Made by a program: the position numbers and the translations under genes. A stretch of DNA of 64,000 bases from Tricharina praecox (taxonomy: Eukaryota), in NCBI RefSeq assembly GCF_024521635.1, contig NW_026250415.1:1-64000 (forward strand), read 5' to 3'. This document shows positions 8,647-45,533 of this stretch, in pieces. The notes below the pieces were generated by a model, which was not told the DNA's origin, ran no database searches, and saw only the letters and a program-made list of their open reading frames with translations. Each line of letters starts with the position of its first letter. Position 1 is the stretch's first letter.

Positions 8647-9868
8647 CTACTCCTCCTCGGGCCACAGGTTGAAGCCGAAAGTATCCTTCATATTGACGAA
8701 GCGCGTGTGTCTTCCCTCAGCGACGGCATTGACCGCCTGGAAGTCGTCCTCGCTCAATTCGAAGCCCTCAAAGTTACTCCTGATCCTGCTCGGGGTTGCG
8801 CTCTTAGGCAGCACGGGATAACCGCGCTTGATGCCCCAAGCGATGAGGACCTGCGCCAGCGTATGTCCCGTCCTCCGCGCGACCTCGTTCAGCGTGGCGT
8901 TCTCGGACACCCTCTCGCCGGTGGTGGGGACCTGGTTCTGCGAGCCCAGCGGCGAGTACGCGACGAGCAGGATGTTCTTCGACTTGGCGAAGTCGAGGAG
9001 CTCCTGGTTCGGGAGGAAGGGGTGGATCTCGACCTGGTTGGCGGCGGGCGGGATGGACGCGAACGAGAGCAGCTGCTCGAGCCGCGGGATAGAGAAGTTG
9101 CTCACTCCGATCGCCCGCGCTTTGCCGCTGCGGTACAGGTCTTCCATCGCTCGCCAGGTTCGCTCCGGGTTGTTGGTTAGGTCGTGCTTGATGATGTACT
9201 GTGAGAAGCGTCAGTGGGAGGTTCCGTCATTCGCTTCCAGAGAGCATGTTGGCACGGGAGGACATGAAGCGTACTTTTCCATCCGGGCCGAGCTTGGGCT
9301 GGTAGTCGTCTGTCCTCTCGGCAGCAATGGGCCAGTGCAGCAGGAAGAGGTCAACATAGTCGAGCTTGAGCTTTCGCAGTGAGTCTTCCATCGACCACTT
9401 GACTACGTCATCACCATTCGTATCAGCACTGTCTTCTTCTTCTTCACCACAGAGAAATCCGGAGCGAGAAGTGAAAAGAAAAAAAGGAAGAGAAAAGCTC
9501 ACCCTCTTCCGGCTCGTGGAGGTGGTTCCAAACTTTGGTGCAGATAAAGAGGTCCTCGCGCTTCACCTTTCCTCCCTGCTCCTTCAAGAAGTCCGCAATG
9601 GCTTCACCGATCTCTTCTTCGTTCAAGTAGAACCACGCACAGTCGAGGTGTCTGTTTTCGCCCTTCGAGTCAGCAATTGGTCGCGTGCAATCGAGGGACT
9701 TGTCATGTCAGGATCTTGCAAAAAACACACTTACCGATAACCAGCTTCCAGAGCACATTTTGTGGACTTGTAGGACTCCCCTTTGGCGCCTTCATTGGCG
9801 AAGGTTCCAAATCCGACGGCAGGAATCTCGGTTCCCGTGTTCAGCTTGAATGTTTTTCCCAAAGACAT
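8647..9868 (-). CDS. gldB: NADP(+)-dependent glycerol dehydrogenase, aldo-keto reductase family, 320 aa; exons 9868-9735, 9651-9503, 9402-9275, 9198-8647
   Basis: GT-AG introns give one frame. Motifs: [82 protein letters not shown]. Closely matches Aspergillus GldB-type sequence. Confidence 0.93.
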
Positions 9869-12631
9869 GATTGCGGTTGGATCGGTACGGTAAGGGTGGG
9901 GTGGGGGAAGGTGATGAGGTGATTCGGAAGACGGTGACGAGGATGATGATAACGAAGCAGGAACCGTGCAAGGCGGTGGTGAAGATGATGATAACGAAGC
10001 AGGAACTGTGCAGGACTGTATCTGTCGTGATGGAGGGCGGATTGAATCGCTTTGAGCAGGAGAGAAGCGGAATCCAATGCGGGTTATCCTTCGGTGGTCT
10101 TTTACATCTCCCAAGAATGCGCTCGATCGAAGCCAGCCAGCCCCGTTCGACGTGCATGTACGCTTGCCAGAGCGTAGCTTTCCTCCCTTGCGTTGGCCTC
10201 GAAGGTTTTCCCTTCGGATGTTCCCTATGCTGTCGACACTGTGTCTGCGGCCGCGCGAGGAGGCGACGATGACGCAGATGTTCGCGGTGGTGCATTAGTC
10301 CATAACCGTAGCGTGCTGATATGTGCGGCAACTTTTGCGTCAGCATTCGAAACGAGGACCCTGATCCGAAAGTCTGCCGATTTCTCTTTTTCGACGCTGT
10401 GGACACTGGAATCCGCCGCCGCCGCCGCCGCCGACCCGCGAGGTATGTAGATAGATGGCTATCTTTCTTCTCGAGGCGGTTATCTACATTAATCTACATT
10501 GTTTTCCGCCGTCAAGGTTTGCTCGATGCTCGCGAGGGAGGCCTTCGATATCACGCGTGGGACTGCCGTGCCAGGCGAACAGAGAGATGATCAGTCAGAT
10601 CATCACTATCATGATCCTGGGGGTTTCCGTCGCTGCTGGGTACCCACTACCAGGGGGAGTTGAGAGTGGAGATTCTCGCTGCAGGTACTCACTCTATTGT
10701 ACCCACCTATCCGCGTCGTACAGCATATTTGTTATTTTATTCTTCGCGATCACGACTGGGCGATCGCCTCGGATCGCAGGGTGCACTCTATGTGGGCACT
10801 TTGTATGTGCATGCCATGTACCATGGAGTACTCCCTACTCCATCTTCATCGCCCGTTGAAACGATGCAATGTTCGCTGCGCGCCGCAGTGAAGGATCGAA
10901 GAAGGGGGGTTGGTTGGAATCCACCGATCGAGCGCAGCAGAATGGTTTGTACCAAACACACAGTACTCTGCATACCGGCACCTACTCTACTCCACTCGAC
11001 TCCACTCCACTTCCCCTGACGATGATGATGGCACTGACTGCGCTCCATCAATATTGGTACCACAAGCTACATTATGTACCGGCACATACGGGCACCGGCT
11101 ACGACAGCGAGTCAGCTTCCTTGTGCCCGAAGAGTCGTAGGGCGGGCCGGGCGGCGATGAAAACTCCGCCTAGCCGCACCGTCCGTGCATAAGGATGACG
11201 CAAAGCGTGTCAGAGAATTATCCGCTACGGGCCGTAGGATCGACAGACCGACATGGGCGTTTTCCCTGCGTTCCGTGACAGCTCAACCACATCCCAACCT
11301 CCGCCGGCGCACTTGGAGGGAAGGGGACAGCATGGGTCCATGGGATAACGGCTTTCGGCACGTTAGCCGCCAATCGTCCACACACCACCGCACCACCATA
11401 CAGACCGCTGCACCACACGAACACACGCCGCCGACGCCGACGCCGCCCGCCGCTGCTGCTGCCTCTACCTCTGGCTGCACTCGGTCGTCATCGCTATCCA
11501 TGTGGGCCCAACGCCCGAGAGCGTCTGTCCGTTTGCATCGGCCACTGGCGCATCCCACGCTCAGGATGGCTCGTTACCAGGAAGGGCGATATTCGGGAGA
11601 TCCATGGGCATGTACATACGGTACCTAGGGACTCTGCCTACTCCTGCATGGCGCCCGGCGGCCGGCTTCTCTGACTTGGCGATGAGCCTTTCACCGCTCG
11701 CTCGCAACGGCTTCCCTGAACAGAGTTTTCTCTGTGGCCTTCCGCCGAGTTCGAAATTCGAATCCTCACCCACCACCATCATCAGCCGCATCCGAGACAA
11801 TTCCCTCAGGTTCGGGATCTCCACTCGGCCAAGCTACCGGCAGGCCAAGTACGGCCAAGTGCTCAGTCCACCCCCCTTCGATGGCCTCTAAACCCACCCC
11901 AGCCAGCGCAGACCCTGAGTTTCCTGGGATCGCCGTCTCGAACATCCACAAGTGCGAGCCAAATCCTCAGATCCTGAGCGGGCTGCTCCAACCTGCGCGA
12001 GGGGACGTATTGGGAAAAGGGCTCCAGCTACTGTAGCCGAATTTACGAGAATCCACACACTTTTCTGCGGCCGAACTGTACATTTGGTCCCGCTTGAGGT
12101 GGTCGTGGTCGTGGCCATGGGTCGATGGTATGACCGTGCAGACTTCAAACCTTCGAAACAGACACAAGCTCGGTGGTCTAGCTGCGTCAACAACCTTGTG
12201 GGGCCTCATTTGTGCCCCATATCTGAATGAACAAGAAAAAAGAGTCCCGAGGTTTCCCGAGCCGACGGGTTCGAACGACGATCACAAGAACTGTGGGAAT
12301 GAAGGGTCTCGTGTTCTGCGCCAAGCTGCCACCGGCTCGTCTCTAGCTGTACCAACCGCCGCCTGAGCCACGCTTGCGTGCATGGTTGACTGACTCTTTA
12401 CGTCATCCAGCTGCTTCTGCTCTGTTGCTGTGAACGTACCAGATGGACAGACTGTCGAACAAGCGTCCGTTTCCGAACGAACGTTATATACCTCCCCTTC
12501 CCCCCCTCATTCAGTAACTATTCCTCAGCTTGCCTTAAATCCTACCTACCTACTACCCATTCGCACTCTTAAAACTCACCTCCTTGTATTACCTCTTCAC
12601 CCTACACAACCTCCACATAACTTCTTTAATC
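9869..12631. promoter_or_regulatory. Shared divergent promoter region with CRE/ATF-like sites (TTACGTCA 12398-12405; TTGCGTCA 10335-10342; TGACGCAA 11196-11203; TGACGCAG 10270-10277) and TATA-like TTATATA near 12484
   Basis: Motifs are seen in the sequence; function is inferred from bZIP (Atf1/AtfA) site consensus. Confidence 0.45.
9942..10012. repeat. 42-bp-period duplication in the gldB 5' region (GATGATGATAACGAAGCAGGAAC[C/T]GTGCA x2)
   Basis: Directly visible. Confidence 0.85.
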
Positions 12632-14207
12632 ATGTCTCCCTCCGCGGACGAAGTTTCTGCCACCTTCACCAAGAACGCCAATGGCAACGGTGAAGATGTT
12701 GCCACATCTAACTCTGTACCGTGAGTTACTCTTTGATTCGATATACCCCCTCGAGTTTTCAATTGACTGACAGAGCATCCAGACAAATGCACACCGACAT
12801 TTCCCGGTCAGACGACGACCCACCATCTCCGATCGAGGTGCCGGCCACCCGACTGGCTTTGGCGGAGGTGGAGCGTCTGATGCACCCTCTCAGCATCCAC
12901 CCGTCGCAGCGTGAGCGACGGGCGTCGCGAAACTCCTTTGGTGCTTCGCTCCCGATTCCCCGAGTACCCCGGCGGTCGGTTCTCCAGATGCGCCCTGGAA
13001 TGCCCGATTCCATCCCCTCGTTCGATATTCTGGCGAGGAAGGCGCAGGATATGGCGCAGCAGAAGGTCGCCAACGCTAAGAACATGGCGTTCGCTTTCGA
13101 TATCGACGGCGTGCTCGTTCATGGTGATCGGTTGATTCCTGAGGGACAGAAGGCGCTCGAGATCCTGAACGGTGATAACGAGTTGGGTATCAAGGTATGT
13201 ACATCCAGCACCACAACCACCGGTTTGTCGTGGCTGACTTGATTGCGTGCTAGATCCCGCACATCTTCCTGACCAACGGCTCTGGAAAGCCCGAAGCCGA
13301 AAGATGCGCCCAGCTCTCCAAGATTCTCGGCTCGCCCGTGTCGACGAAGCAGTTCATCCAGGCGCACACGCCCATGTCCGCCCTGGCGCAATACTACAAC
13401 ACCGTCCTGGTCGTCGGCGGAGAGGGCTACCGCTGCCGCGAGATCGCCGAGCTGTACGGCTTCAAGGACGTCGTCGTCCCCAACGACATCGTGGCCTGGG
13501 ACGAGACGATCGCGCCATACCGGGTCTTCGGCCCTTGGGAGCGCGCGTCCGCCCGTCCCCGCGACTTCGAAAACATCAAGATCGAAGCGATCCTCGTCTT
13601 CTCGGACAGCCGCGACTACGCCACTGACTACCAGATCATCATGGACCTGCTGCGGTCCGACGGCGGGCGCCTACACACCCAGGCCAAGAACCCGACCAAA
13701 CAATCGCTGCCGATCTACTTCTCGCAGGGCGACTTCCTGTGCCCGACGGAGCACCCAATCCCGCGCATGTCGCAGGGGACGTTCCGCGTCGGCCTCGAGG
13801 CCATGTACAAAGCCATGACGGGCATCGAGTTGGAGCGCACCATCTACGGCAAGCCCGAGATCGCAACCTACACCTACGCAGACGAGGTCCTCTCCTCGTG
13901 GATGGAGGATATCCACTCCGAAAACGTCCTGCCGAAGAATGTGTACATGATCGGCGACAACCCGCAGTCGGACATCGTCGGCGGTAATGCCTACGGCTGG
14001 AACACGTGCCTCGTCCGCACCGGTGTCCACACCGGCGACGAGAACGATAAGGAGAACCCCGCGAGCATGGGGCTGTTTGAGAATGTCCTCCATGCCGTCG
14101 TCACTTGCATGCAGAGAGAACTCGGCCATGACTTTAAGTTCGAGTTCGACCTGAAGGCGCATAACCCCACCCTGCTGGACGCGCCTGTCTCCGCTATCGA
14201 AGTATAG
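12632..14207 (+). CDS. HAD-superfamily subfamily IIA hydrolase/phosphatase (CECR5-like), 487 aa; exons 12632-12720, 12774-13194, 13254-14207
   Basis: Motif I FAFDIDGVL, II FLTN, III GKP, IV MIGDNPQSDI; canonical introns restore the frame. Confidence 0.92.
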
Positions 14208-15679: not shown

Positions 15680-17797
15680 TCCGCCGGCAGCGTATGCCAA
15701 AGCCCAAAGCACACATCCTTACACAGGGCGACCTTACTTCCCACAACCCTACAATGTGCGCAGGCATATCCCGTAGCATGTACGGCTCCCTTGAACGTCT
15801 TTGCATCCCTCGACTCGGGCCAGTTCTTGGCCTGCTGGCGCAGGTAGCGGCACATAAAACATGGCGGGGGCAACACCGGCGCCTTGGAATTCGAGGAGGT
15901 GCGGACCGAACGAGTCGATGCGGCATGTGGGAAGGCGGTAGTTCTTGCTGATGTAGCCTGGTGGTGTGAATGTCAGTATGGGAGGGAAGGGTGATGGAGT
16001 ACAGGGTACTGCGTACCCTGCTGCCTGCTCTCGGAACAATTGCCTTGAGGCCTGTTGCCCTGTAGGTATTTTCCATCTGCGACTCGCTTCATCGGTTCGC
16101 CTTGCTGCGTATGGGGACGACGGAGGGGCGGTAATCCCGGAGCGGCCGCTTAAAAATCCGTCTTGTGGGCGTGGTCGTCGCGATATCCCTCCTGTACCAG
16201 CTGCCACGCCAGATCTTTCAGGAAAGTTCTACAATCGTCGAAGCATTCCTCTTCGCAATTTCCACGTTCCCACTGGTCCTGACGGGCAACGACAAAGGAG
16301 TTTATACCGGCGGTGGAGAGCAGCCAGAACAACAGCGGAACTCAGGTTCTGCGCACGGAGAGGTGGCTGCAGATGTAGCTGCGTTGCTCGTCTGCAAGCC
16401 AGGAGTCGACGCCGAAGCCGCCGCCGCCCATGTGCTGGTGCTGGTTGTACTCGGAGACGATTATTGGGTTTGGGAGGCTCTTTTGGCCCCTACTGTCTTT
16501 CCAGCTCCACTCCGTGTCGCTATAAGTTGCATACGGAGGTCGCACAACGTATTCGGTCGTCATCAACCGCGCCAGTTTCTTGTCCTGCAGGATGATGCAC
16601 AACACACCGTCCACTACCTCTCCGGCCGCCGTGCCCCGTTCAAAACCGCCATGTTTCTCCTCGGCCCGTCGACGTATCGCCGGATATTCATCACAACTTG
16701 GTCTTGCCGTAGCGCAGCAAGTAATTCTATGTCTCAACAGAGCTCTGAACAGCGGAACATTAGCGAAGTAGCTATCGCAGAAAATCATGAACCGATGGCC
16801 GCCCCAGGGCAGAGCATAGCACAGCCAAAAGAACGCACGCGAAGTTGCGCTTAGGAGCAACGGGTTTTCGGGGCCGTCGGGATGCGGGCCTGGATACGGC
16901 TGATCAAATCCAGGGCTCAAGCCGCCGGCACGCGATGAAAACGCCCAGTTATAAGTGTAGCCACGGTCGCTCAGGGCCAAAATCTTGTAACCGTTCAGAA
17001 GAGGCTTCGATGACATGCGGAGGGTGGGTGGTGTCCGGCACGTAAACTTCACCATCATCGAGTCTAGCGAAAGATGGCTTGCCGGGAGATGGCGCTGGAA
17101 GCGCGCTTTGAGGTGCCCGTTCAAGGGCTCTAGCTTGTCGTACCACCGTGTGCGCGAATGTGTCGATGGTGGTGAGACGTGGAACCAGCGTTTGATCTCT
17201 TCGAACCGCACTCGGCCCATGTAGGTGGTGATCCTGCAGATGGCACACTGTCAGTACGTACATGCATTACCAAAGAAAAGGTGTAGGATAAAGAGACCTG
17301 TAGTTTGGCGCCATGTGATTTTATCCCAATACTCCTCCACCGTCGCATCTCTATACACGCCCATATATATCAACAGCCCGACAAAGATCTTCATCGAACC
17401 TGGAGTGACATCCTTCTACCACTTCCCTCTCCCCCTCGTATTCTGCTCTTCCGTAGCCTTGTGCGCTCGGTAGGCATTGGTATTGGCCGCCAAGGTTTCA
17501 AACTCGCTGTCTGGGAAAAAGAGCTTGAAGTAGTCGATTGGGGCGAGTGAGGAGTCCGCGTCGTTGAATCTCCCGGGCCACGGCAGTAACTGCAGCTTGC
17601 GTTTATGGATTGGTTGCGGATGTTGATATGGAATGTACTCGGGTACTGGTGGAAGGCGAACTTCAACATCCGACGAAAGGTTCGGCGCTTTCATGCTCGG
17701 CTACTTCATGGTTGGCGATGTTGCCATCCAATTCCGCATCCTCGTCGAATGACCGACCCCTTTGGTTCTCGTAGGTATATTCTTCGTCCAGCATCAT
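15680..17797 (-). pseudogene. piggyBac (PGBD/DDE_Tnp_1_7) transposase fossil with C-terminal Cys-rich domain; stops at 17416, 16342, 16150; several frameshifts; probable introns 17297-17234 and 16016-15958
   Basis: PIDYFKLFF..LAANTNAY, IFVGLLIYMG..EEYW, RFEEIKRWFH, LSLDSMMVKF, GYKILAL..GYTYNW, FCDSYF, YN..MGG..VD..AD, RRT*VPLLFWLL..INSF, CFMC...CAHC..LC..CF..WH. Confidence 0.9.
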
Positions 17798-18003: not shown

Positions 18004-20276
18004 ATGCACGCGGAGATCTCACTCGTGAATAGTGAGGTAAAACAAGGTTGTTTTCTCAAATCTCAACCCTCATGGTAGGAGCTCCTCATATCGCTCACTG
18101 CCCAAGTCTTCCTCCAAGCTGACCCCCATTGCGTCTCGTCTACAGTTCATTCCAACCAGCTTTCGCCACCCCTTATAAGACAACATCAGATAACATCCTT
18201 TCCTATGAGCCATCGCCATGAATCTTAGCTGGCATACAACAGTCCTGCACAACCAGGAAAAAATGCCCATCATTAGGGCAATCAAAAGAGAAAACACGAA
18301 ACAACCGCACAAACGTCTTGCCATCTTGCAAAGCTTTTTAAACAATATTTCATAGTAACGTCTCTATTCAAGCACACCGCCAAAGCAATTCTTTCGGTCC
18401 TCACACAGGCTGTAATAAAAGAACTCAGCAAATCCACCCTCGTTTTCCGCGAAGAAGGTATCCACGAAGTATTGATGGTGCGCATCGTATACGGCGTCAC
18501 CGGTATCTGGCACAAGATGCACTGGTTGACCGGAGACCTCGGTACAGAAGAGCCTCGGGGTAAGAATTCTCATGCACATCGAGTCGAAGTGGTTTTTTCC
18601 ACAATGGAGGCAGGGCCGTAAGGGCTGGAGACGCTCTGCTGGTGCAGCGGTACAAGGCCTCCTGGCGGTGTTGGTTGGCGTCCATCCGAGCCATGAAATC
18701 GACTGTGGAAACCGCCGGGTGTCTGGTTCTCGGACGGGCTGTTGCGGCTGCCGCTCTCCCTGGCGGTTCTTCCGAGTCCCCACCCTGCGGAGTTTGGGTT
18801 GCGATTCTCTTGCCGGTGCCTGGCTGGCCTGGTTTTCCACAACTTCCGAACCGCCGAAGGGCCAGCAGTTAGGGGTTCGGGCTGGGCCCTGGTACGGCCC
18901 TGGGCATGGACTATTCGGGTTCCTTCCACCGCGCAAACGGTTATCCTGCGCGATGAGCGCGTCACGTAGCCCTTCTTCCACATTCTGCAATGCTAGTAGA
19001 TGAGACGAGATGGAGCGGTCCGCCTGAACGGTCGGCAGACATTTTTGCAATTCTGGGTCTAGTTTAAAATGGGCCGCACGAAGTTTCGAGTTGTCGTCGG
19101 AATTCGGATAGGCGTCAGTGACGAGGGACAACATATCTGTAAACCAATACATCAGGGAAGCACCAGACATAAACTGCTCCACCGTAAAGCAGGAATCTCG
19201 ACAGGAAAAATTTGCCATGGCCTCCCCGACGGGAAGGCGGAATTTTTCCTGCAACGTCTGAATCCAAATTGCGCAGGTGCCTGAGTTGTCTCTTATGCAC
19301 GCATTCTTGATATACTGGTCTGCTATGTTGTTCCACCAGGCCACGGCTGCGCCCCGGAAGCAACTCGGGAGGTTCCTTGCAACTGTGTCCGCCCCGTATG
19401 TTGCGATCCAGTTGGCGATGCAGTTGGTGAAGGTGTGAACATCACGGAATAGGCATCCATCACCGGGACGGTACACAATTCGTCCGGCCCCGTAGAATGC
19501 TGGCACGTCAGGCCAGAAAGATCCAACAAACTTCTGGTTCCACTCCCGCTTATAACGTTTTGCGGTGTTGAAACCCGTCCCATCATGAGTGGTCGATGCC
19601 TCGCCATCATCCGTCTGCTGAATGCGAAGGGCTTCCGTAAAAGCGTGAGCGATACGTGCATCTTCGTGGGTTGGCAGCTTCCCACTGCTAGTCTGGTCGC
19701 CCTGTGGTGGTAGGATGAAAGACACCCTGTCTTCTTCGATGGTGGGTGATGCAGGAGACGATACCGTTTGGCGGTGGGGTAAGGGTGAGTGTCCGGGGGC
19801 TGCTGTTGCAGCGGGCCTGTTGAAGAGAGGGGAGGTGGGGTTTGTTGGTCTGATGGGAAGGGGAATGTTCATAGGGGATGTTGAACAGCCTTGCAAGCCT
19901 GCACCGCTGTCGGAGGGACGCTGGAGGTTTTCGACAATGGCGATGCTACTGGCGAGGTGGGATCAGCAATCCTGTCGAACAAGAACGCGGTGAGGAGGTG
20001 ATTCTCTCGATGAGAGTCTCCCTTATGTGCTCTCGCTCGGATCAACTCTTGTTGCAGTGAGTGTTAGACTTACTAGTGTACGGTGGGTATGTACGCGGAG
20101 ATGGTACTCGTGACAAGTGAGGCGAAAGAAGAAGGTTGTTTTCTCGAGCTCTCGTGATCAGGAAGGAAGACGATGAAGATAAAAGATGATGAAGATGAAA
20201 GATGATGAAGAAGTGGAGGTTGTATTCGACTTCGAAGAACCATCTACTCTGATATGGCTCTCCTCCGCTACCTACA
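18004..20276 (-). mobile_element. LTR retroelement (Ty3/gypsy-like) carrying gag only; 5' LTR ~20276-20050 (TGT...ACA), partial 3' LTR 18064-18004
   Basis: Direct repeat 18004-18064 ~ 20089-20153 flanks a gag-like ORF; no RT/RNase H/integrase present. Confidence 0.7.
18364..19896 (-). CDS. Retrotransposon Gag-like protein with CX2CX3HX4C zinc knuckle (~500 aa; first ATG at 19872)
   Basis: Uninterrupted ORF; FRDVHTF..NLPSCFRGAAVAWW..WIQTLQEKFR capsid-like motif; RPCLHCGKNHFDSMC knuckle. Confidence 0.78.
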   Translation of the reverse strand: MQGCSTSPMNIPLPIRPTNPTSPLFNRPAATAAPGHSPLPHRQTVSSPASPTIEEDRVSFILPPQGDQTSSGKLPTHEDARIAHAFTEALRIQQTDDGEASTTHDGTGFNTAKRYKREWNQKFVGSFWPDVPAFYGAGRIVYRPGDGCLFRDVHTFTNCIANWIATYGADTVARNLPSCFRGAAVAWWNNIADQYIKNACIRDNSGTCAIWIQTLQEKFRLPVGEAMANFSCRDSCFTVEQFMSGASLMYWFTDMLSLVTDAYPNSDDNSKLRAAHFKLDPELQKCLPTVQADRSISSHLLALQNVEEGLRDALIAQDNRLRGGRNPNSPCPGPYQGPARTPNCWPFGGSEVVENQASQAPARESQPKLRRVGTRKNRQGERQPQQPVREPDTRRFPQSISWLGWTPTNTARRPCTAAPAERLQPLRPCLHCGKNHFDSMCMRILTPRLFCTEVSGQPVHLVPDTGDAVYDAHHQYFVDTFFAENEGGFAEFFYYSLCEDRKNCFGGVLE

Positions 20277-21849: not shown

Positions 21850-23745
21850 CTATCCAGCATAAACCCCCCGTCCCGCCTGCCTCCAAACCCACTCAGCAAC
21901 GCTCCTTCCAACCGCGCCACGTTCAACCGCCGCACCAACCCACCCAGCAACCGTTGCAACGCCGACAACCAGCCCACCCCAGAGCGCCCAATCCATGACC
22001 AGTTCCATCTCCGATTTCTCACCGTCCTGGACACGGTCGTACTTAGTGAATCTCTCGACGCCTTCGCGGCGGCGGACAACGTCTCGGCCACCGTCGCGGG
22101 GACGCTCAGCTTGCAGGTTTACGACTGCCATCTTGAGCGTCGAGACTTCGTTCTGGAGCTCCCAGATCGCCGTGTCGCGGGGCGCGAGGATGCTGTTGAG
22201 CTGGGAGCGGGAGAGGCCGGGGAGCTGCAGGAGGGGCGTCTCTGGTCGTGGGGTTTCGGGACGCGATCCAGGGCGGGTTTGCGGGCGGCGGTTGGTGCCC
22301 TCGAGGAATTGGCTGGTCGGGGGGAAGCGCCCGATGTAGTCTGTGGGCGACTGCTCGGCAACGGGGGTGCTGGCTGGGAGTAGTTTTTCCTGTGCGAGGG
22401 GGGGTACGGGGACTTCGGGCTCAATGCCGAGTTCGATGCTGGAGCGCCGAGGAATCTTGCCTTTGTGGCCTTCGTCAACACCGTCGCCGGGGCGCTTGGA
22501 TGGCTCGGTGATGGAGGGGCGATGGCGAGGGGTGGCCGGGCCTGAGGTGAACTCGACGGGTGGTTGTTGTGGGATGGCGATGGGGCGGGTGGAGAGAACA
22601 TGCTGGAGCTTCTTGTGTTCGAGTTCCTCGTGCGCAGAACGTTGGTGCACCGCGTCGCCAATGTTGGTGCCGAAATCTCCAGGTTTGATGTGGCTATGCT
22701 GGAGCTCGCGAGTTTCGGCGTCCGGAGCGGCATCCTTTCGGTGGTGTTTGCCGTCTGACGGATGGTCCTTATCAGCCACCTCTGGTTTCTTCACATGTTC
22801 GGCATTGCTACTGCCCTTCCCTCCGTGCGACGCGCGAGCCTTCGTAGCCGCATGCTCCGCGTCAGCATGCATATCACCCTGATGCCTCGATGGCTCCATT
22901 GAGTTCCCCATGCGCTCGCTCTCATGCTTCAACTCTTGATGCAGACGATCACCAATATTCTCGCCCATCTCGTCCGGCCTCAACTGGATCTTATCAAGCT
23001 CAGGAACCGCGGGCGTATTCTGCCCTCCGCTTCCGGGGCCAGCCTTTGTATTGTTCGGAGTCTTTGGTACGGTGCTGGGAGACATCGAAACGTTTTCGTA
23101 GGAGCCGCCCAGGCCGCTCTCGTCTTCGTGAGGAGTGTCGGTAGCGGCAGCGGCAGCGTAGCTGTGATCCTCGGAGCGCGAGGTTGGGGAAAGGTTCGCG
23201 TCTTTCTCCTCCTGGGTGCCGGCCAGCCGGCCAGCTTCGATCTTGGACTTTGCAGTTGCAGACTCCATTTCCTTGCCACCGAAGGTGTATCGCACGGTGA
23301 CGGGACTCTTATCCACTTTCTGACCCCCCTCTTGCTTCGCCTTAGGCTCAACCTTGCCCTTATCAGTCCTCTGCCGCTGAAGCACCTCTTTGTTCTTCCC
23401 GCTCAGGTACCTCACCCTCGTAGGACTATCCCTTCCCTTCCCTTTCTTGTCCTTGTTGCGTTCGCCGCCCTGATCTCCGTCGTTCCTCGCTTCAGATTCG
23501 GTCAAACACTCTGCGAGATTGTCCCTAACCGCCTCCTTCTCCTTCTCTTCGCTCAACCGTCTCTCGAGCGACTCCTCAAAGCTATGGGCGTCGGGCGTCG
23601 CTCTGACAGGCGAGATCTCGCCGGGGCTCGTGTCGGATGAGGAGCCTGACAGTGGGGTTTGCGGATCGCTGGACGCGAGGATGTGGGCTGGCGGGTTGTT
23701 TGGGGGGGGATTGCGGGTGCGCTTGGATTTGGAGGTTTTGCCCAT
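21850..23745 (-). CDS. Hypothetical 631-aa largely disordered protein with short coiled coil and C-terminal transmembrane helix (tail-anchored-like)
   Basis: Long ATG-started ORF, charged low-complexity body, IWELQNEVSTLKMAVVNLQAE heptads, hydrophobic WALWGGLVVGVATVAGWVGAAV near the end. Confidence 0.7.
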   Translation of the reverse strand: MGKTSKSKRTRNPPPNNPPAHILASSDPQTPLSGSSSDTSPGEISPVRATPDAHSFEESLERRLSEEKEKEAVRDNLAECLTESEARNDGDQGGERNKDKKGKGRDSPTRVRYLSGKNKEVLQRQRTDKGKVEPKAKQEGGQKVDKSPVTVRYTFGGKEMESATAKSKIEAGRLAGTQEEKDANLSPTSRSEDHSYAAAAATDTPHEDESGLGGSYENVSMSPSTVPKTPNNTKAGPGSGGQNTPAVPELDKIQLRPDEMGENIGDRLHQELKHESERMGNSMEPSRHQGDMHADAEHAATKARASHGGKGSSNAEHVKKPEVADKDHPSDGKHHRKDAAPDAETRELQHSHIKPGDFGTNIGDAVHQRSAHEELEHKKLQHVLSTRPIAIPQQPPVEFTSGPATPRHRPSITEPSKRPGDGVDEGHKGKIPRRSSIELGIEPEVPVPPLAQEKLLPASTPVAEQSPTDYIGRFPPTSQFLEGTNRRPQTRPGSRPETPRPETPLLQLPGLSRSQLNSILAPRDTAIWELQNEVSTLKMAVVNLQAERPRDGGRDVVRRREGVERFTKYDRVQDGEKSEMELVMDWALWGGLVVGVATVAGWVGAAVERGAVGRSVAEWVWRQAGRGVYAG

Positions 23746-24195
23746 CGTGGTTCTTTCTTTCTTTCTGGGAGAAAGCAGATGGCCGAGGGGGAGGGGGGAG
23801 GGATGAGGGAGGGATCAGCAATGGTGCAGATGGTAGGACGCTGCGAGGTTATGTAAGGATTGGACGATGTGGTGGGAGTTGCGTCATGAGATGCCGTGAT
23901 GGTGACGTCAAGGAGATGTGTGAGGGCCACGGGAAGCGAGCGAACAGAAAGGCTGCCGAGAAGGCTGTAATCACGGTATCACGGGTCGGGGAGGATGATG
24001 GCATGGGAAGCGAGGGGTGGACGGTCCTCGGTCTGTGTAACTCGGGCCGTTCGTAGCCCAACAATCGTGTAGGACAGTCCCGTAGCCAGAAGTTGACCAC
24101 TGTGAAATCTGCCGAATACAAGCACTTTGTTAAACTTTTGAATCCGCACCAAATATTTTGTTTCGCTAATAGCACACAATTATCAATCATAAACA

Positions 24196-25811
24196 TTACC
24201 CCACAATCTCCCTCCCCTCGGCCACCGGCTTCTCCGACGCCCGCTCCAGGTCGCTCGCCTTGACACTGGCCACCTCATCCTCCTCGAGACTCAAATCTCT
24301 ACCCAACTTCTCGGGCCCCAAAAACACCAAAACAATGACATACGCGAACACAGCACCCATGAATATGGCCATGACCTTGGCGTAATCATATCTCGCCTCA
24401 CCGCCATCACTATCCTCGAGCGGGAACCTCTCGCCAATCGTGGCCTCGATAGTCGAGCTCGCCGAGCTGACAAGGTTACCGAGCTGGTACGCGGTTCCGA
24501 CCACGAACGTGCGCATCCCCGGCGGCGATAGCTCCATCAGGTGGATGGGGATCACGCCCCACGCCCCCTGCACCATGAACTGCTCAAAGAACGCGGCCGC
24601 CATGATGTTGTTGCTGCGCACGTACGTGTACGGGTACACCAAAGCGCCGCCGAGGATGCACGCGCCGATTATGGAAGTGCGTCGCCCGATGGTTTGCGAC
24701 ATGTATCCCATCGTCGTGCCGCCGAGCATGGCGCCGAGGTTCGCGACGACTTGCGTTACCGTTACTTGGTTGGACGAGAACTCCAGCTGGCTCTCGAGGA
24801 GGGTGGGGTATAGGTCTTGGGAGCCGTGGGACTTTGGATCGGTCAGCGGGAGTTATGTAAGTGAAGGATGAGAGTGCAAACAAACCATAAAGTTGAATCC
24901 CGCCATCATAAGGACCATGTACACAAGCGTGATCCAATGTTTTTTGAACCCGACCTTCGCCTCCTTCATGAACGTGCTACCGACGCCCTCCACCTCCGCA
25001 TGTTTCCTCAGCTCCTGTCTCGCCAGGAACGCGTTGGTCTCGGGCAGGTACAGGCGCCACAGGATGATGAGCGCGGGCGGGCAAGCACCGAACCAGAACA
25101 GCGGGCGCCACCCGTGGGTGGGGTCGTGTGCGAGCGCGCGAGAGAATACCGCCGCGAGAAGGTACCCGAACGCGTAGCCTTGCTGGAGCATGCCGCTGAG
25201 AATTCCGCGCGCTTCCGGTGGTGCGTCTTCGAGTGCTGTGGCGGCGCAGTTGCCGTAGATTCCGCCCATCGCGATGCCGAAGAAGGCGCGGACGATCAGG
25301 AAGCCTTTGTAGCTGGGTGGGGGTTAGTAGGAGGGAGGGTGGCGGGAGAGAATGTTGTACGCACCTGGTCATGAAACCGGTGAGGAGCTCGAAAAGGATG
25401 AAGAGCAGGTTGTTGATGATGAACGGCCACTTCCTTCCCCACTTGTCGGCGGCGATACCGAAGGTGATGGCACCCACACTTCGCAGCATCAGCACCAATG
25501 TTATGCCCCATGTGATGTCCGTCTTCGAACGGTCGAATTCTTTGGCCAGCGCGGAGACGGTAAGCGACACGGTGAAGAAGTCGAAAGCATCCCTATGCGA
25601 TTCCCATCTGTTAGCATGCGCAAAGACAGGCTGGTGAGAGGGGGAGGAAATCGTACCAAGTCCAAGCGACAAAAGCGATCAAGAAGAACCGCCATTGATG
25701 CCAGGTGAGCGTCCTCAGCACCGCGAAAGGGTTGGGCGGTACATTTCCGGTGGGCTTCAGTGTAGTGAATCTCGTAGCAGCGTAACGACCAACGCTCATG
25801 TGTTCCGCCAT
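24196..25811 (-). CDS. JEN1: MFS carboxylate/H+ symporter (Jen1/SHS family), 481 aa; exons 25811-25657, 25592-25365, 25312-24886, 24831-24196
   Basis: AWTWDAFDFF, ADKWGRKWP, GILSGMLQQGY, and the Jen signature NFMSHGSQDLYPT reconstituted across intron 3. Confidence 0.93.
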
Positions 25812-35213: not shown

Positions 35214-37290
35214 CTAGTCGTCCTCCGGTTTCATACCTGTAACGTGCCACCTACATAGTTTTCCATCGTTCTGTCAGCAGGTGTATCATCACTGGGAAGG
35301 GGGGTATGTAACGAACATGATCTGATATGTATGCACCCTCTTCCCGCCCACATCCGCTTGCGCAAGTCTACACAGCGCCACAACATCCTCGGCGGACATA
35401 TCTAGGTATCGCGTGAACAGGGCCATGGCGTAAGCCTTTTCACGGGTGCAGCCTAGGTATTAGCTTCTGGCTGCGGGGCTCGTCGTAAGGAGTGGGAGTA
35501 TGCAAATGCAAATGCATGTACATACCTCAAACCCGCCTTTCCCAATCGCCAGAGCACAAGTCTCGCCTATCTTTTTCATCTCCGCGTTCTTTGGCCACGC
35601 TCCCCATGGTTGTTTATAGTAATGAATCTGCCGCCGCGTCATTTTCCATCAGCCCTCTTCCCCCCGCTCCCCATCCCTCCCCCTCCCCCTCCCGCCCCAC
35701 CCCGCCAACGCATGCATACCTCAACATCCACAAACCCGGCCTCCTCGGCATACTGCCTGAGGACATTCCCGTCGGGTGCCAGCAGTCCCGCCTTAGTCCC
35801 GGCCTTCCAAAAGTTGTTCATATAGCGCTCGAGGTTTGAGCCGGCGTAGGTGCCGTCGTCGCAGTGCAGCTGCGCCTCGGTCTCCGCCAGCTCGACGTAG
35901 CCCCCCGGACGCGTGCTGCGGAACATCTGCCGCAGGTAGCAGGGCCAGTTCCGGATCGACTGCGCGATGTTGCGAGAGTGGATTAGGTCGAAGTAGTCCT
36001 AGGGAGGGGGTGGGGGTTAGCTGCGGGAGGGGGGAGGGGGGGGAGAAGGGGAAGGGGGGAGGGGGGCAAAGTACTTCTTTGAACGTCCACTCCAGCTCTA
36101 GATCGTCAACTTCGAATTTGACCTACAGACCCGGGAATCCAACTTTAGTCCGATTGGGATTTATGCGGGGTGTGGGGAGGATTTAGGCGGGGTGCAAGAC
36201 GCTGCAGCAAACGACAGGAAGTGATCACATTTGGGAATACCCTGGAGGAAAAAAAAACTGTTCAGCGTGGTTTTGAGAATGGAAAGTGCCAGGTAAGTAG
36301 GTGAGTTTTGGATGATGGTGTGTTTTTGTTATTACCATGTTGGCTGTATAGGGCTCAGATCCACGCCGATGACCTGCGCGCACGGGAACATCTCGCCCAT
36401 GTCTAGCGCCCAGATTCCGGTGCCGGTGCCGCAGTCGAGGATGTTGTGCGGGTTGCCCTTGAGCGGCGCGGTGTATAGCAGCCCCCGTAGTGAAAGGAAT
36501 TGGAAGTGGTGGTAGATGTCTAGCCTGCCAGCGGGAAGGTGGTTACATCAGATGGCCTGTCCCCGACGTGATCAGACGTAAGGCCCGAGAGAGATATACC
36601 GGTCTTGTTCGGTCTATACGGAGTCAGCGAAAGGTTTTTATTCCGGTCCGGAGCCGGGGGAGGGGGCGTACCTCGTCGTTGGGCATCATGTATTTTCCGG
36701 CCTGAAATCTGTGGTACCGACGGCCTACCAACCGTGGAGCGGGGGAGTTAGACTTCGAGCAGCAAAGCCAACAAGCTTCAGGTGGGGCGTAGACGAACCG
36801 TTTTCGTACACGTAATCAATGACCGAAGCCGTAAGACTTTTCGTTGAGCTCACTCTTTATCGCCGCCAGTCAGTCGTGATTGTCCCGACCACAGCAGCGA
36901 ATGTGTCGGTGTATGGTAGGTATAACCAAGTATGCAGTACGTACAAACTGTCACCGTAGCCCGAGTTCACGTCACCGGCGTCGTAGGCATCCTCTGGATT
37001 CGTTGCGGCATCGTCTTCTGCTTCGCTGGCAGTTGCTGGTGCAGCACTTTCCGCTTCCAACTAACGAGGTCGGGGAGTTGGGATCAGCGAATGGACAGCA
37101 GTGAGGTGGGGGCCAGAGGGGAGATGCTACCCAGACAGGGAGTGCATTCGTCCGTGCAGAAGAAGAAGAAGAGGACAGGAAGGTAGTGACATGGGTAAGA
37201 TGGGTGTAATAGACTTACCTCGAGAATTCCCCAGTTATTCGATACAAGGGGAGATGGAACGGTTACAAAATCCTGGTGGTCGGACGTCAT
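35214..37290 (-). CDS. LaeA-like (LLM) class I SAM-dependent methyltransferase, 365 aa; 12 exons: 37290-37219, 37060-36945, 36854-36799, 36724-36672, 36613-36600, 36524-36336, 36241-36229, 36122-36075, 35998-35720, 35627-35526, 35435-35317, 35250-35214
   Basis: YVYENGRRYH, MPNDETEQDRLD, ILDCGTGTGIWA, IGVDLSPIQP, FEVDD, FDLIHSR, PGGYVELAE, PWGAWPK; total exon length 1098 nt keeps frame. Confidence 0.9.
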
Positions 37291-42030: not shown

Positions 42031-43309
42031 TATAGCTGGGTGAGGAATCACGTACGACTTTGTGGATCGTTCGTTCACTCGTTCGTTAGTTCGCTGCGGC
42101 TAATGCCCGGCGAAGGACTGGCAGCCCTCAGCCTTCCGGTCCCCGATGGAGGGTGCAATCCATCCTGGCTGAAAATCAGGTACTGGTAGGTATGTGCTAA
42201 AGACAGGTCAACGGAATGGTACTCTGAACTTAACCCCCGCGTTTGGCAAATTATTGTCGAACAGTCGAACTTCGAAGTGTGTATCATACATACAGCTACC
42301 GAACAGTCCATGCGGGTCCTGGCGTCCGCCGTCTATCCGCCCGGTTAGTCCGGCATCCGTACTCTGGCAGGCCAAAGACGGGCCGGACCCGCCGCCGCAT
42401 CGACAGCCGTTTCAACTTTCAAGGTGCTCGAACTGAAGAGGAGACAATGCCTGATGTACGGAAGATTTGGACTCAGCGAGCAAACGAAATACCAACTTAC
42501 AAAGACAAGAAAATCCAAGAAATGGTCAGTGTCTGTGTTTCCGCTTGGTCGGTGTTTCCACTCGAGCAGTCAACCAGTACTCTAGCTAACGGGGGGTTGC
42601 CAGGGCAAGCAAAGACTCGGGATTCAGCCCATGCCATCAATTATCACTATCGCTCCGTAACCGGCTTCCCACAACCCACCGCTCACCGTCGGCCTCGGCA
42701 ACTCCTGACGATCCAGGCAAATGCAATATATTCCCTTCCCCGGCCTACCTGCTCCATATGAACTCTGGAATAGAGTAGCTAGAGTGCCGTTAGGACGATT
42801 GGCGGGACCTACTTATGTACTACCTATACCGCACATAGTAACTATGGCTGAGGTCGCCGCCAGCAGGAATATTCGTCAACGTACCTAATAGTAGTGGAGT
42901 TCCGCCAGTCGCCGGTTGGGGTGTGCCGTACTATGAGGGCCATGATGGGTTACGCCATCTCATATGAGCATCGGAGCATCGAAGGGTGTTGATTTTCCGC
43001 CGCCGCCCGCTTCACTCCACTTCACTCCGCGCAGGTTACAGAGCGGAGGGATGCAGACACGGTAGGGATTGATATCGAACCGAACCGACCACAACCGGGC
43101 CGCCCAGTAACCGTGAAAGCGTGCTCCGTCGGCAGAGGTCCCAACTATGGCCCGCCGAGCGACATATATATCGTCCCTGCGGGATATTTGGAATTCAGTT
43201 TTTGTTTCGCGTCTGGTCTGGTCTGGTCTTTCCGTTCGATTCGATTCGATCCGCAGTTCACACAGACTCACCCGCAGACATTTGGCATCTCGATAGCGAC
43301 AGACAGAAA

Positions 43310-44582: not shown

Positions 44583-45533
44583 TCACCAACTTCCGCGCTC
44601 CCAGGTGGCCGGCGTCAAGCCACAACTCTGCTCCCAAAAACTGGCAATATCGTCAATCTCGTCGGGTATCTAGAACTGTAAGTCCAAGTAACGTTCGGGA
44701 ATCGGGAATTAACGAACCTTTATTCTATGCGGAAGCCCGCGGTACCTCCTCCACACCACATCCATGCCCAGCGCCTTGAGGCCCCCGTAGATCTCCCTCC
44801 CAACCAGGTACTTGACCACCTCATCCGAATCTCCGTGCCCGAGCCACGCCGGGGTCTTCAGCACCTGGGAAACGACCTCCTTCTCGAACGCATCCTGGCC
44901 CAGTACCCGCTCCCGTAGCGCACCCAGCACCCTTGTCCTCTCCCGCAGCTTGAAGGCCTCATCAGCATCCCAGATCGGCACGTCAACATCCCTAGTTCCC
45001 GTCACCACCGCGCCGACCGGCATCCCTTTCCTTGCCAGCTCCCTCCTGATCTCGAGCGCGAACGGCAACCACCCGCTGAGCCCGAGCACACCTCCCAGTC
45101 TCCTCCCACCCAGCAGCAGCGCCACGAGCGCCACCGCCGCGCCCTGGCTCAGCCCCCCAAGCAAAATATTCTCCGGCGGGATGCCGGCGGCGACCTCGTC
45201 CTCGATCAGCGCATGGATGTGCTCGACGACGCCGCGCAGGCCCTCGAGCTGCGTCGGCGTGTACGACTTTGGGTCCGTGCCATTATAAAAGTCGAACCAC
45301 TGCGCGATGTGGCGGCGGAACGTGCACGAGAACGTTTCCGACGGGGTCGGGAACACGAGTTTTAGGGTTGGGTATCGGCGCGAGGCGGTGAGGTCCGCGG
45401 TGAACGCGGGCCCGAACACCGACGCACTGTCGCCGCGCCCGTGGAGGAAGATCAAAGTGTGGGTGTGGTCCGTCTTTGCGGGGATCGTCAGCGGCGTCAG
45501 GAACGCCGGCGGCTGCTGCTTGCTGGTCGACAT
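44583..45533 (-). CDS. Phospholipase/carboxylesterase (acyl-protein thioesterase-like alpha/beta hydrolase), 300 aa; exons 45533-44718, 44669-44583
   Basis: LIFLHGRGDS, QWFD, GGLSQG nucleophile elbow, LSGWLP, HGDSDEVV, GLPH, then IPDEIDDI after a 48-nt intron. Confidence 0.9.

What the first reader, a model, noticed from the sequence alone, without database searches (positions are those of the whole stretch)
8647..14207. Head-to-head gldB + HAD-IIA phosphatase: candidate two-gene DHAP->DHA->glycerol osmolyte module
Seen: an NADP-glycerol dehydrogenase and a HAD-IIA phosphatase are transcribed divergently from a ~2.76-kb shared region with several CRE-like sites. Established: GldB-type enzymes make glycerol from dihydroxyacetone during osmoadaptation in Aspergillus, and some HAD-IIA enzymes dephosphorylate DHAP (e.g. 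Corynebacterium HdpA). Inference: the HAD supplies DHA, giving a co-regulated glycerol route that bypasses glycerol-3-phosphate. I believe this adjacency also occurs in other ascomycetes, so it may be conserved and partly described already.
Basis: partly seen in the sequence, partly recalled or inferred. Interest (0 to 1): 0.72.

Follow-up and report, generated by a model that had tools for sequence, protein, structure and literature searches.

The report
Conserved fungal cutA–gldB glycerol gene pair
Two back-to-back fungal genes, a glycerol-forming reductase and a small phosphatase, are a new copy of a gene pair already described in Neurospora and Fusarium as helping the fungus make glycerol under salt stress, so the idea is reasonable but not new.

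Summary
A four-exon aldo-keto reductase (320 aa, minus strand, 8647-9868) and a three-exon HAD-IIA phosphatase of the CECR5/TIGR01456 family (484 aa, plus strand, 12632-14207) are transcribed divergently. The 2763 bases between their start codons show no hidden gene. The "CRE-like sites" are no more frequent than in shuffled sequence.

The pair is not new. In Neurospora crassa the phosphatase is cut-1 (NCU04924) and the adjacent gene is the glycerol dehydrogenase gcy-1 (NCU04923). [quoted passage not shown] As I recall that paper, which is not held, it already describes divergent linkage to gldB and proposes CutA as the DHAP phosphatase.

My searches show the two genes on the same contig in 7 of 8 named species found in both hit lists. 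They also share five unnamed contigs of 10-53 kb. The linkage therefore spans Pezizomycetes, Dothideomycetes and Sordariomycetes.

The DHAP-phosphatase step remains unproven. The yeast homologue Ykr070w was crystallised with glycerol-3-phosphate and is mitochondrial. The fungal long form has an acidic, disordered N-terminus with an almost invariant RRxSRNS...LPIP motif.

Verdict: a new Pezizomycete member of a known pair, of low to moderate interest.

The parts
8647..9198 (-). Reductase (GldB/Gcy-1-type AKR) exon 4, including the stop codon at 8647-8649
   Evidence: Reading frame. Pfam Aldo_ket_red E=1.6e-28. Splice model and 320-aa product. End-to-end blastp to Pyronema P0003.
9275..9402 (-). 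Reductase exon 3 (holds His117 of the catalytic tetrad)
9503..9651 (-). Reductase exon 2 (holds Asp48, Tyr53 and Lys84)
9735..9868 (-). Reductase exon 1, with the ATG at 9868-9866
   Evidence: alignment starts at residue 1 of both proteins.
9869..12631 (.). Shared 2763-bp divergent intergenic region. No hidden gene was detected.
   Evidence: None of 10 ORFs of 110 aa or more has a Pfam hit. No Rfam hit. No codon-position GC signal. Motif counts are at chance level.
9928..10016 (.). 42-bp unit repeated 2.1 times (85% matches), 60-150 bp upstream of the reductase ATG
   Evidence: Tandem Repeats Finder, score 136. Also visible.
12398..12405 (+). The only ATF/CREB-like octamer (TKACGTMA) in the spacer, 234 bp upstream of the phosphatase ATG
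   Evidence: 1 observed, and 57 of 500 shuffles give at least 1.
12632..12720 (+). Phosphatase (CUT-1/CutA-type HAD-IIA) exon 1, with an acidic N-terminus
   Evidence: aligns from residue 1 with Sphaerosporella P0123; 1 basic and 4 acidic residues in the first 30.
12783..13194 (+). Phosphatase exon 2. It holds the rest of the N-terminal extension and HAD motif I (DIDGV, 13099-13113).
12916..12960 (+). Conserved N-terminal motif RRASRNSFGASLPIP (residues 75-89), a basophilic-kinase-type site
   Evidence: Present in 106 of 110 full-length homologues. Its core residues are invariant in the 38-sequence alignment A1.
13254..14207 (+). Phosphatase exon 3. It holds motif II (FLTNG), the cap, motif III (GKP) and motif IV (GDNPQSD). 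The stop is at 14205-14207.
   Evidence: TIGR01456, 230.8 bits. Ykr070w structures 3kc2/3rf6, E=6e-51. Motifs.

Best explanation
This is the Pezizomycete copy of a conserved fungal two-gene unit, known as cut-1/gcy-1 in Neurospora crassa and cutA/gldB in Fusarium fujikuroi.

The minus-strand gene encodes an NADP-dependent aldo-keto reductase of the glycerol 2-dehydrogenase (GldB/GLD2) group. That group reduces dihydroxyacetone to glycerol. The plus-strand gene encodes a CECR5/TIGR01456-type HAD-IIA phosphatase. It has a roughly 135-residue disordered N-terminal extension specific to filamentous ascomycetes.

The two genes share one divergent promoter region. By orthology they act together in accumulating glycerol under osmotic and other stress.

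The most likely mechanism is inferred, not shown. The phosphatase removes the phosphate from a three-carbon glycolytic ester, most probably DHAP. This gives dihydroxyacetone, which the reductase converts to glycerol with NADPH.

The conserved RRxSRNS...LPIP motif suggests that the phosphatase is also controlled by phosphorylation.

Shown: gene identities, architecture and conserved linkage. Taken from the literature: the osmotic and glycerol phenotype of the orthologues. Inferred: the substrate, the cytosolic location and the regulation.
For: - Gene models and families.
- Catalytic residues: all four HAD motifs (DIDGV 136, FLTNG 172, GKP 366, GDNPQSD 401) and the reductase tetrad (D48, Y53, K84, H117) are present.
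- Naming of relatives: reductase relatives at 68-72% identity carry source names such as 'Glycerol 2-dehydrogenase (NADP(+))' and 'glycerol dehydrogenase'.
- Reductase tree: in a 34-row tree the window protein sits in a Pezizomycete clade (SH-aLRT 99). The family largely follows fungal classes, with 7 label changes against a minimum of 5 and a shuffled mean of 18.1.
- Linkage in N. crassa: NCU04924 is listed as 'cut-1, phosphatidyl synthase' (passage of PMC6468284). NCU04923 is gcy-1, reported to have glycerol dehydrogenase activity (passages of PMC13158570).
- Linkage elsewhere: 12 pairs of hits share an identical 'longest contig' length. These are 7 of the 8 named species present in both lists (Pyronema, two Pestalotiopsis, Phyllosticta citrichinensis, Dendryphion, Westerdykella, Coniothyrium). 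They also include five unnamed contigs of 9830, 10113, 17587, 27283 and 52764 bp (matched by eye).
[quoted passage not shown] - Pocket size: the best structural match of a model of the 81%-identical Sphaerosporella protein is 3rf6, 'glycerol-3 phosphate bound HAD-like phosphatase from S. cerevisiae'. Other HAD-IIA matches include glycerol-phosphate and phosphoglycolate phosphatases.
- Not obviously mitochondrial: the first 30 residues hold 1 basic and 4 acidic residues. Among 110 homologues the median net charge is -2, and only 1 has no acidic residue there. Residues 1-90 of the model have pLDDT below 50.
- Open slot in the pathway: a 2026 paper draws the DHA-to-glycerol route through the GldB-type reductase. 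In the passages I read it names no enzyme for making DHA.
Against: - No DHAP phosphatase assay of any member of this family turned up.
- The primary cutA and cut-1 papers are not held. The divergent cutA/gldB linkage in Fusarium, the co-induction, the low glycerol of the deletion mutant and the authors' DHAP proposal are all from my recall.
- The yeast homologue was crystallised with glycerol-3-phosphate, not DHAP, and its other entry is titled 'mitochondrial'.
- Ykr070w is described as a mitochondrial orphan that co-precipitates with Coq proteins.
- Human HDHD5 is treated as a mitochondrial protein phosphatase.
- S. pombe SPAC22A12.08c, whose name many fungal homologues inherit as 'phosphatidyl synthase-like', is listed as a mitochondrial fusion protein.
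- No stress-element enrichment was found in the spacer.
- No fusion of this phosphatase with a reductase appeared among the 7 longer relatives found.
- The papers disagree on the reductase group. One says NCU04923 is the predicted homologue of T. reesei GLD1, the glyceraldehyde reductase. Another puts Neurospora proteins with GldB/GLD2 and places T. reesei GLD1 in a different family.
- The characterised GldB and GLD2 sequences were not in my tree.
- A. fumigatus and A. nidulans gldB were not induced by fludioxonil.
Confidence: 0.6

Rival explanations
1. The phosphatase is a glycerol-3-phosphate phosphatase, or a broader C2-C3 phosphoester phosphatase. It serves the classical DHAP -> glycerol-3-phosphate -> glycerol route. 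The adjacency then co-regulates two parallel ways of making glycerol rather than two consecutive steps.
For: The closest solved structure, 3rf6, is titled as glycerol-3-phosphate bound. Other HAD-IIA fold matches include the M. tuberculosis glycerol phosphate phosphatase Rv1692 and mouse phosphoglycolate phosphatase. A low-glycerol deletion phenotype (recalled for Fusarium cutA) would fit this reading equally well.
Against: A bound ligand in a crystal is not a measured substrate preference. If glycerol-3-phosphate were the substrate, there is no obvious reason for selection to keep the gene beside the dihydroxyacetone-reducing enzyme across three fungal classes. A separate glycerol 1-phosphatase step is listed for N. 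crassa.
Confidence: 0.2
2. The phosphatase does the same still-unknown mitochondrial job as yeast Ykr070w and human HDHD5, in lipid or CoQ metabolism or in protein dephosphorylation. The neighbourhood with the reductase is inherited synteny around a shared promoter, with no pathway link. Osmosensitivity of mutants would then be indirect.
For: Ykr070w is a mitochondrial orphan associated with Coq proteins and lipid-related interactors. HDHD5 knock-out changes mitochondrial phosphosites. The S. pombe homologue is listed among mitochondrial fusion proteins. Source names such as 'phosphatidyl synthase-like' reflect that fusion. The match to Ykr070w is strong (E=6e-51).
Against: The N-terminus is acidic and predicted disordered, unlike a presequence. 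Orthologues are tied to osmotic stress and glycerol. CUT-1 was found in complexes of the MAP kinase MAK-2. Linkage to the glycerol reductase is kept across three classes.
Confidence: 0.15
3. The adjacency is a chance neighbourhood in this genome and means nothing.
For: Divergent neighbours are common in compact fungal genomes. No motif enrichment was found in the spacer.
Against: The same two families share contigs in 7 of 8 named species checked, and share five small unnamed contigs. They also have consecutive locus tags in N. crassa.
Confidence: 0.03

Closest known systems
Fusarium fujikuroi cutA (HAD) with its neighbour gldB (Garcia-Martinez, Castrillo and Avalos 2014, Microbiology 160:26)
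   Same: The phosphatase family is the same and the partner is a glycerol dehydrogenase-type reductase. [quoted passage not shown] Recalled only: divergent arrangement, co-induction, low glycerol in the deletion mutant, and the proposal that CutA is the DHAP phosphatase.
   Different: This copy is from a Pezizomycete, an early-branching class of filamentous ascomycetes. Nothing is known of its expression. I could not compare the spacers or read the paper.
Neurospora crassa cut-1 (NCU04924) and gcy-1 (NCU04923)
   Same: Consecutive locus tags. cut-1 encodes a HAD-family protein implicated in the osmotic response (text and reference title). gcy-1 has glycerol dehydrogenase activity.
   Different: The N. 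crassa sequences were not in my hit lists, so orthology rests on family, names and position. One paper calls gcy-1 the homologue of T. reesei GLD1 rather than GLD2.
Saccharomyces cerevisiae Ykr070w (PDB 3kc2, 3rf6) and human HDHD5/CECR5
   Same: The same TIGR01456 family. E=6e-51 to the solved structures. The best fold match has 37-40% identity over the core. All catalytic motifs are shared.
   Different: The yeast and human proteins are described as mitochondrial. The yeast chains are 352-355 residues and align only with the core. The window protein carries a roughly 135-residue acidic, disordered extension with the RRxSRNS...LPIP motif. I did not check the yeast or human sequences for that motif.
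Aspergillus nidulans GldB (AN5563), Trichoderma reesei GLD2 and T. atroviride GLD1: NADP-dependent glycerol 2-dehydrogenases
   Same: Aldo-keto reductase fold with an intact tetrad. Relatives at about 70% identity are named after these enzymes. The literature ties this group to osmotic glycerol formation from dihydroxyacetone.
   Different: The characterised enzymes themselves were not compared. Activity and cofactor use are untested. Whether Aspergillus keeps the phosphatase next door is unknown: no held paper mentions AN5562 or AN5564.
Corynebacterium glutamicum HdpA, a DHAP phosphatase
   Same: A HAD-superfamily phosphatase that makes dihydroxyacetone from DHAP. It does the reaction proposed here.
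   Different: The relationship was not tested because no HdpA sequence was at hand. The passages read do not give its subfamily. It has no solved structure. The only bacterial relatives my scan found are generic HAD-IIA proteins in Rhodococcus and Mycobacterium, with uninformative neighbours.

Membership tests
HAD-IIA, TIGR01456 (CECR5) family | Score above the curated family cut-off | tested here: met
   Exon 3 alone scores 230.8 bits against a cut-off of 139.25. TIGR01460 HAD-IIA scores 155.8 against 100.15.
HAD-IIA, TIGR01456 (CECR5) family | The four HAD catalytic motifs (DxDG nucleophile, Thr/Ser, Lys, acidic pair) | tested here: met
   DIDGV at 136, FLTNG at 172, GKP at 366 and GDNPQSD at 401. 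Motif I was found in 110 of 110 homologues.
HAD-IIA, TIGR01456 (CECR5) family | Core-plus-cap architecture like solved members | tested here: met
   Pfam Hydrolase_6 plus Hydrolase_like. Ykr070w 3kc2/3rf6 at E=6e-51. The model of an 81%-identical relative matches 3rf6 and 3kc2 best (TM 0.71-0.77 on the target) and then NagD-type phosphatases. The model is of the relative, not of the window protein.
CUT-1/CutA group (filamentous-ascomycete long form) | Long N-terminal extension with the conserved RRxSRNS...LPIP motif | tested here: met
   135 residues precede motif I, against a median of 148.5 in 110 homologues. The motif lies at residues 75-89 and is present in 106 of 110. That this feature defines the group is my own reading of the alignment.
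CUT-1/CutA group (filamentous-ascomycete long form) | Divergent adjacency to a glycerol dehydrogenase-type reductase | tested here: met
   Seen in the window. N. crassa has consecutive locus tags. Contigs are shared in 7 of 8 named species and in 5 unnamed contigs. Orientation in the other genomes was not seen.
CUT-1/CutA group (filamentous-ascomycete long form) | Induction by osmotic stress; osmosensitive, low-glycerol mutants | not testable with these tools
   Needs expression data and mutants.
GldB/GLD2-type NADP-dependent glycerol 2-dehydrogenase | Aldo-keto reductase fold with the Asp-Tyr-Lys-His tetrad | tested here: met
   PF00248. D48, Y53, K84 and H117.
GldB/GLD2-type NADP-dependent glycerol 2-dehydrogenase | Groups with the characterised GldB/GLD2 enzymes rather than with GLD1-type glyceraldehyde reductases | tested here: inconclusive
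   The nearest relatives carry GldB-derived names and form one class-following group. The characterised enzymes and their paralogues were not in the tree. Two papers disagree about the Neurospora gene.
GldB/GLD2-type NADP-dependent glycerol 2-dehydrogenase | NADPH-dependent reduction of dihydroxyacetone | not testable with these tools
   Needs an enzyme assay.
DHAP phosphatase (HdpA-like function) | Measured phosphatase activity on DHAP | not testable with these tools
   Needs an enzyme assay. None was found in print for this family.
DHAP phosphatase (HdpA-like function) | Sequence relationship to HdpA | not tested
   No HdpA sequence was available from a tool. The passages read say only 'HAD superfamily'.
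Mitochondrial Ykr070w/HDHD5-type protein | N-terminal mitochondrial presequence (basic, without acidic residues) | tested here: not met
   The first 30 residues have 1 K/R and 4 D/E. Only 1 of 110 homologues lacks acidic residues there. This is a simple composition test, not a trained predictor, and internal targeting signals are not excluded.

The most novel reading that the evidence does not exclude
The CECR5/HDHD5/Ykr070w family as a whole may be a triose-phosphate (DHAP) phosphatase family. On that reading, the linkage to the dihydroxyacetone reductase predates the split of the filamentous-ascomycete classes.

The cytosolic long form would then be switched by phosphorylation of the almost invariant RRxSRNS...LPIP motif. 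That would tie stress-kinase signalling directly to the supply of dihydroxyacetone.

If so, the fungal gene pair would give the still-orphan yeast and human proteins a testable substrate.
Probability: 0.15. Interest if true: 0.6.

Novelty: new member of a known kind. Interest (0 to 1): 0.25.

Why it matters
The enzyme that makes dihydroxyacetone for the fungal NADPH-dependent glycerol route has not been demonstrated in anything I could read. The candidate belongs to a family whose yeast and human members are still described as orphans or only loosely assigned.

This window adds only comparative support. The pairing reaches back to Pezizomycetes, and the fungal form has a conserved, probably regulatory N-terminal motif. 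The idea itself is already published for Fusarium and Neurospora, so the value lies in prompting the missing enzyme assay, not in discovery.

Tried and rejected
- **Accession-number adjacency.** I used equal contig lengths and published locus tags instead.
- **Primary papers.** Garcia-Martinez 2014 and the 2015 JBC survey of yeast HAD phosphatases are not held. Details of the first are recalled. Nothing is taken from the second.
- **Literature searches with no relevant result.**
  - cut-1 + gcy-1 + Neurospora returned 0 papers.
  - cutA/gldB/F. fujikuroi/HAD returned 2 papers, neither mentioning gldB.
  - cutA + dihydroxyacetone + Fusarium returned 16 papers. I opened two and both were irrelevant.
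  - AN5562 and AN5564 occur in no held paper, so Aspergillus adjacency stays unchecked.
- **Promoter motifs.** CRE, CreA, STRE and HSE sites are all at chance level. The bacterial promoter/terminator scan is not meaningful for a fungus.
- **Hidden gene or RNA in the spacer.** None found.
- **Fused forms.** Only 7 longer relatives were found, none fused to a reductase or to a CDP-alcohol transferase. One Uncinocarpus protein has an F-box domain. The tool notes that finding none is weak evidence.
- **Bacterial relatives.** Three actinobacterial loci hold generic HAD-IIA proteins. The one I examined lies beside siderophore transport and purB genes, which is uninformative.
- **Not attempted.** No complex prediction was run, because I do not claim the two proteins bind. 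No fungal genome collection was available, so the order and orientation of the pair in other fungi were not seen directly.

Full report
**What is in the sequence**

The finding's two ends are the stop codons of two genes that point away from each other.

The minus-strand gene has four exons: 9868-9735, 9651-9503, 9402-9275 and 9198-8647. The plus-strand gene has three: 12632-12720, 12783-13194 and 13254-14207. All five introns are 59-100 nt and begin GT and end AG. The spliced products are 320 and 484 residues with no internal stop.

The models are supported by end-to-end local alignments. The reductase is 81.5% identical to a Pyronema omphalodes protein over residues 1-319. The phosphatase is 80.8% identical to a Sphaerosporella brunnea protein over residues 1-469. 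The nearest relatives of both proteins are Pezizomycetes, so the window comes from a fungus of that class.

**The two proteins**

The minus-strand product is an aldo-keto reductase (Pfam PF00248). Its catalytic tetrad is intact: Asp48, Tyr53, Lys84 and His117. Relatives at 68-72% identity over the last exon are named 'Glycerol 2-dehydrogenase (NADP(+))' or 'glycerol dehydrogenase' by their sources.

I built a tree of 33 named relatives, chosen by hand from the 120 listed, plus the window protein. The window protein falls in a Pezizomycete clade (SH-aLRT 99). The family largely follows fungal classes.

The plus-strand product is a HAD-IIA phosphatase of the CECR5 family. TIGR01456 scores 230.8 bits against a cut-off of 139.25 on the last exon alone. 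All four HAD motifs are present. Its only close solved relatives are the two structures of yeast Ykr070w (E=6e-51).

**The spacer**

The 2763 bases between the start codons show no sign of another gene:
- None of 10 ORFs of 110 aa or more has a Pfam match.
- There is no Rfam match at E<=0.1.
- The excess of G+C at third codon positions never passes 0.13 there, against 0.32-0.43 in the large exons.

The 'CRE-like sites' are not a signal. I tested both readings, the ATF/CREB element and the CreA site. I also tested stress and heat-shock elements. All were compared with 500 dinucleotide shuffles, and none is enriched.

The single TKACGTMA match lies at 12398, 234 bp upstream of the phosphatase start. 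A 42-bp unit is duplicated just upstream of the reductase start.

**The pair is already known**

A table in PMC6468284 (passage only) lists NCU04924 as 'cut-1, phosphatidyl synthase'. PMC13158570 (passages) gives NCU04923 as gcy-1, with glycerol dehydrogenase activity. The two Neurospora genes therefore have consecutive locus tags.

The reference lists and one-sentence summaries of three papers give the primary sources:
- Youssar, Schmidhauser and Avalos 2005: the cut and ovc gene encodes a HAD-family protein.

Neither paper is held. From memory of the 2014 abstract:
- cutA is divergently linked to gldB.
- Both genes are induced by salt, heat and light.
- The deletion mutant has little glycerol.
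- The authors propose that CutA dephosphorylates DHAP to feed GldB.

I mark this account as recalled.

**How widely the linkage holds**

I therefore compared, by eye, the 'longest contig' columns of the reductase hits (120 listed) and the phosphatase hits (120 listed, 7).

Eight named species occur in both lists, and seven of them match:
- Pyronema omphalodes (610,956 bp)
- Pestalotiopsis sp. 9143b (424,029 bp)
- Pestalotiopsis sp. NC0098
- Phyllosticta citrichinensis
- Dendryphion nanum
- Westerdykella ornata
- Coniothyrium glycines (271,043 bp)

The exception is Phyllosticta citriasiana (2,007,754 against 2,022,962 bp), where both clusters hold several members.

Five unnamed contigs also hold both genes, at 9,830, 10,113, 17,587, 27,283 and 52,764 bp. 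On the two smallest contigs (9,830 and 10,113 bp) the genes lie within about 10 kb of each other.

Equal length is a proxy for 'same contig', and orientation was not seen. With that caveat, the linkage spans Pezizomycetes, Dothideomycetes and Sordariomycetes. Aspergillus, where GldB was characterised, stays unchecked.

**What bears on the mechanism**

In favour of a small three-carbon phosphoester substrate:
- A model of the 81%-identical Sphaerosporella protein was made (mean pLDDT 73.4; core mostly above 85; residues 1-90 below 50).
- Its best match is 3rf6, titled 'glycerol-3 phosphate bound HAD-like phosphatase from Saccharomyces cerevisiae'.
- Other HAD-IIA matches include glycerol-phosphate, phosphoglycolate and pyridoxal-phosphate phosphatases.

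In favour of a non-mitochondrial location for the fungal long form:
- The first 30 residues hold 1 basic and 4 acidic residues.
- Among 110 full-length homologues (of 127 fetched; 17 dropped as partial or outside 440-600 aa) the median net charge is -2. Only one lacks acidic residues there.

The roughly 135-residue extension contains RRASRNSFGASLPIP. This motif is present in 106 of 110 homologues, and its core residues are invariant in a 38-sequence alignment. CUT-1 is reported as a phosphoprotein found in MAK-2 kinase complexes. Regulation by phosphorylation is therefore a reasonable inference.

**What speaks against, or for the rivals**

- The ligand in the yeast crystal is glycerol-3-phosphate, not DHAP, and the other yeast entry is titled 'mitochondrial'.
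- Ykr070w is described in 2026 as a mitochondrial orphan that co-precipitates with Coq proteins (passages).
- A 2026 preprint treats HDHD5 as one of ten resident mitochondrial phosphatases affecting protein phosphosites (passages).
- Many fungal homologues are named after S. pombe SPAC22A12.08c. That protein is listed as an uncharacterised mitochondrial fusion protein.
- No reductase fusion was found among the 7 longer relatives.
- The reductase's place in the dihydroxyacetone-reducing group rests on inherited names and a published tree, not on a comparison with the characterised enzymes. One paper calls the Neurospora gene a homologue of the glyceraldehyde reductase GLD1 instead.
- I found no assay of DHAP phosphatase activity for any family member. 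Supplements were not consulted.

**Comparison with HdpA**

The passages I read describe HdpA as a HAD-superfamily DHAP dephosphorylase without a solved structure. They do not give its subfamily.

A scan of bacterial and archaeal genomes found only three weak actinobacterial relatives, which are generic HAD-IIA proteins. The one examined has uninformative neighbours.

**Verdict**

What this analysis adds:
- The pairing reaches back to Pezizomycetes and holds in three classes.
- The fungal form has an acidic, disordered N-terminus with a near-invariant basophilic-kinase-type motif.
- The nearest solved homologue binds a three-carbon phosphoester.

The substrate remains unproven. I rate it a new member of a known kind, with interest 0.25.

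Noticed in passing
window 12916-12960 (+), residues 75-89 of the phosphatase: An RRxSRNS...LPIP motif lies in the otherwise poorly conserved, predicted-disordered N-terminal extension. It is present in 106 of 110 full-length homologues. It looks like a basophilic-kinase phosphorylation site. Its function is unknown.
   Followed up: partly
window 9928-10016: A 42-bp unit is repeated 2.1 times (85% matches) just upstream of the reductase start codon, probably in its 5' leader or core promoter.
   Followed up: no
window 16345-17250 (-): An open frame of 302 aa matches the piggyBac-type transposase domain DDE_Tnp_1_7 (E=2.9e-19). It lies about 2 kb downstream of the phosphatase gene. I did not check whether it is intact.
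   Followed up: no
window 24199-25678 (-): Three adjacent frames match the sugar and MFS transporter families, so this is one spliced transporter gene about 10 kb from the pair. I did not test whether it is a glycerol or polyol carrier.
   Followed up: no
window 43073-44347 (+): A 425-aa frame has a glyoxalase/dioxygenase-superfamily domain (E=5e-15). It is about 30 kb from the pair, and no link to triose-phosphate or methylglyoxal metabolism was tested.
   Followed up: no
window 44712-45758 (-), 48254-49117 (+), 52879-53580 (-), 60376-62548 (-), 35642-35998 (-): Other recognisable genes in the window: a phospholipase/carboxylesterase-type hydrolase, an NAD(P)H-binding protein, a fungal-specific transcription factor domain, an FAD-dependent phenol-hydroxylase-like monooxygenase in several exons, and a methyltransferase fragment. 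None is glycerol-related by name.
   Followed up: no
window 18367-19962 (-) and 21853-23814 (-): Two long open frames (532 and 654 aa) have no Pfam match at E<=1e-4.
   Followed up: no
P0246 (Uncinocarpus reesii, 847 aa): One annotated relative joins the phosphatase domains to an F-box domain (PF12937). This may be a gene-model merge or a real fusion.
   Followed up: no
literature: Two 2026 papers assign the Neurospora reductase differently. One calls it a homologue of T. reesei GLD1. The other groups Neurospora proteins with GldB/GLD2 and places T. reesei GLD1 in another family. The naming of GLD1 and GLD2 across Trichoderma species is inconsistent.
   Followed up: partly
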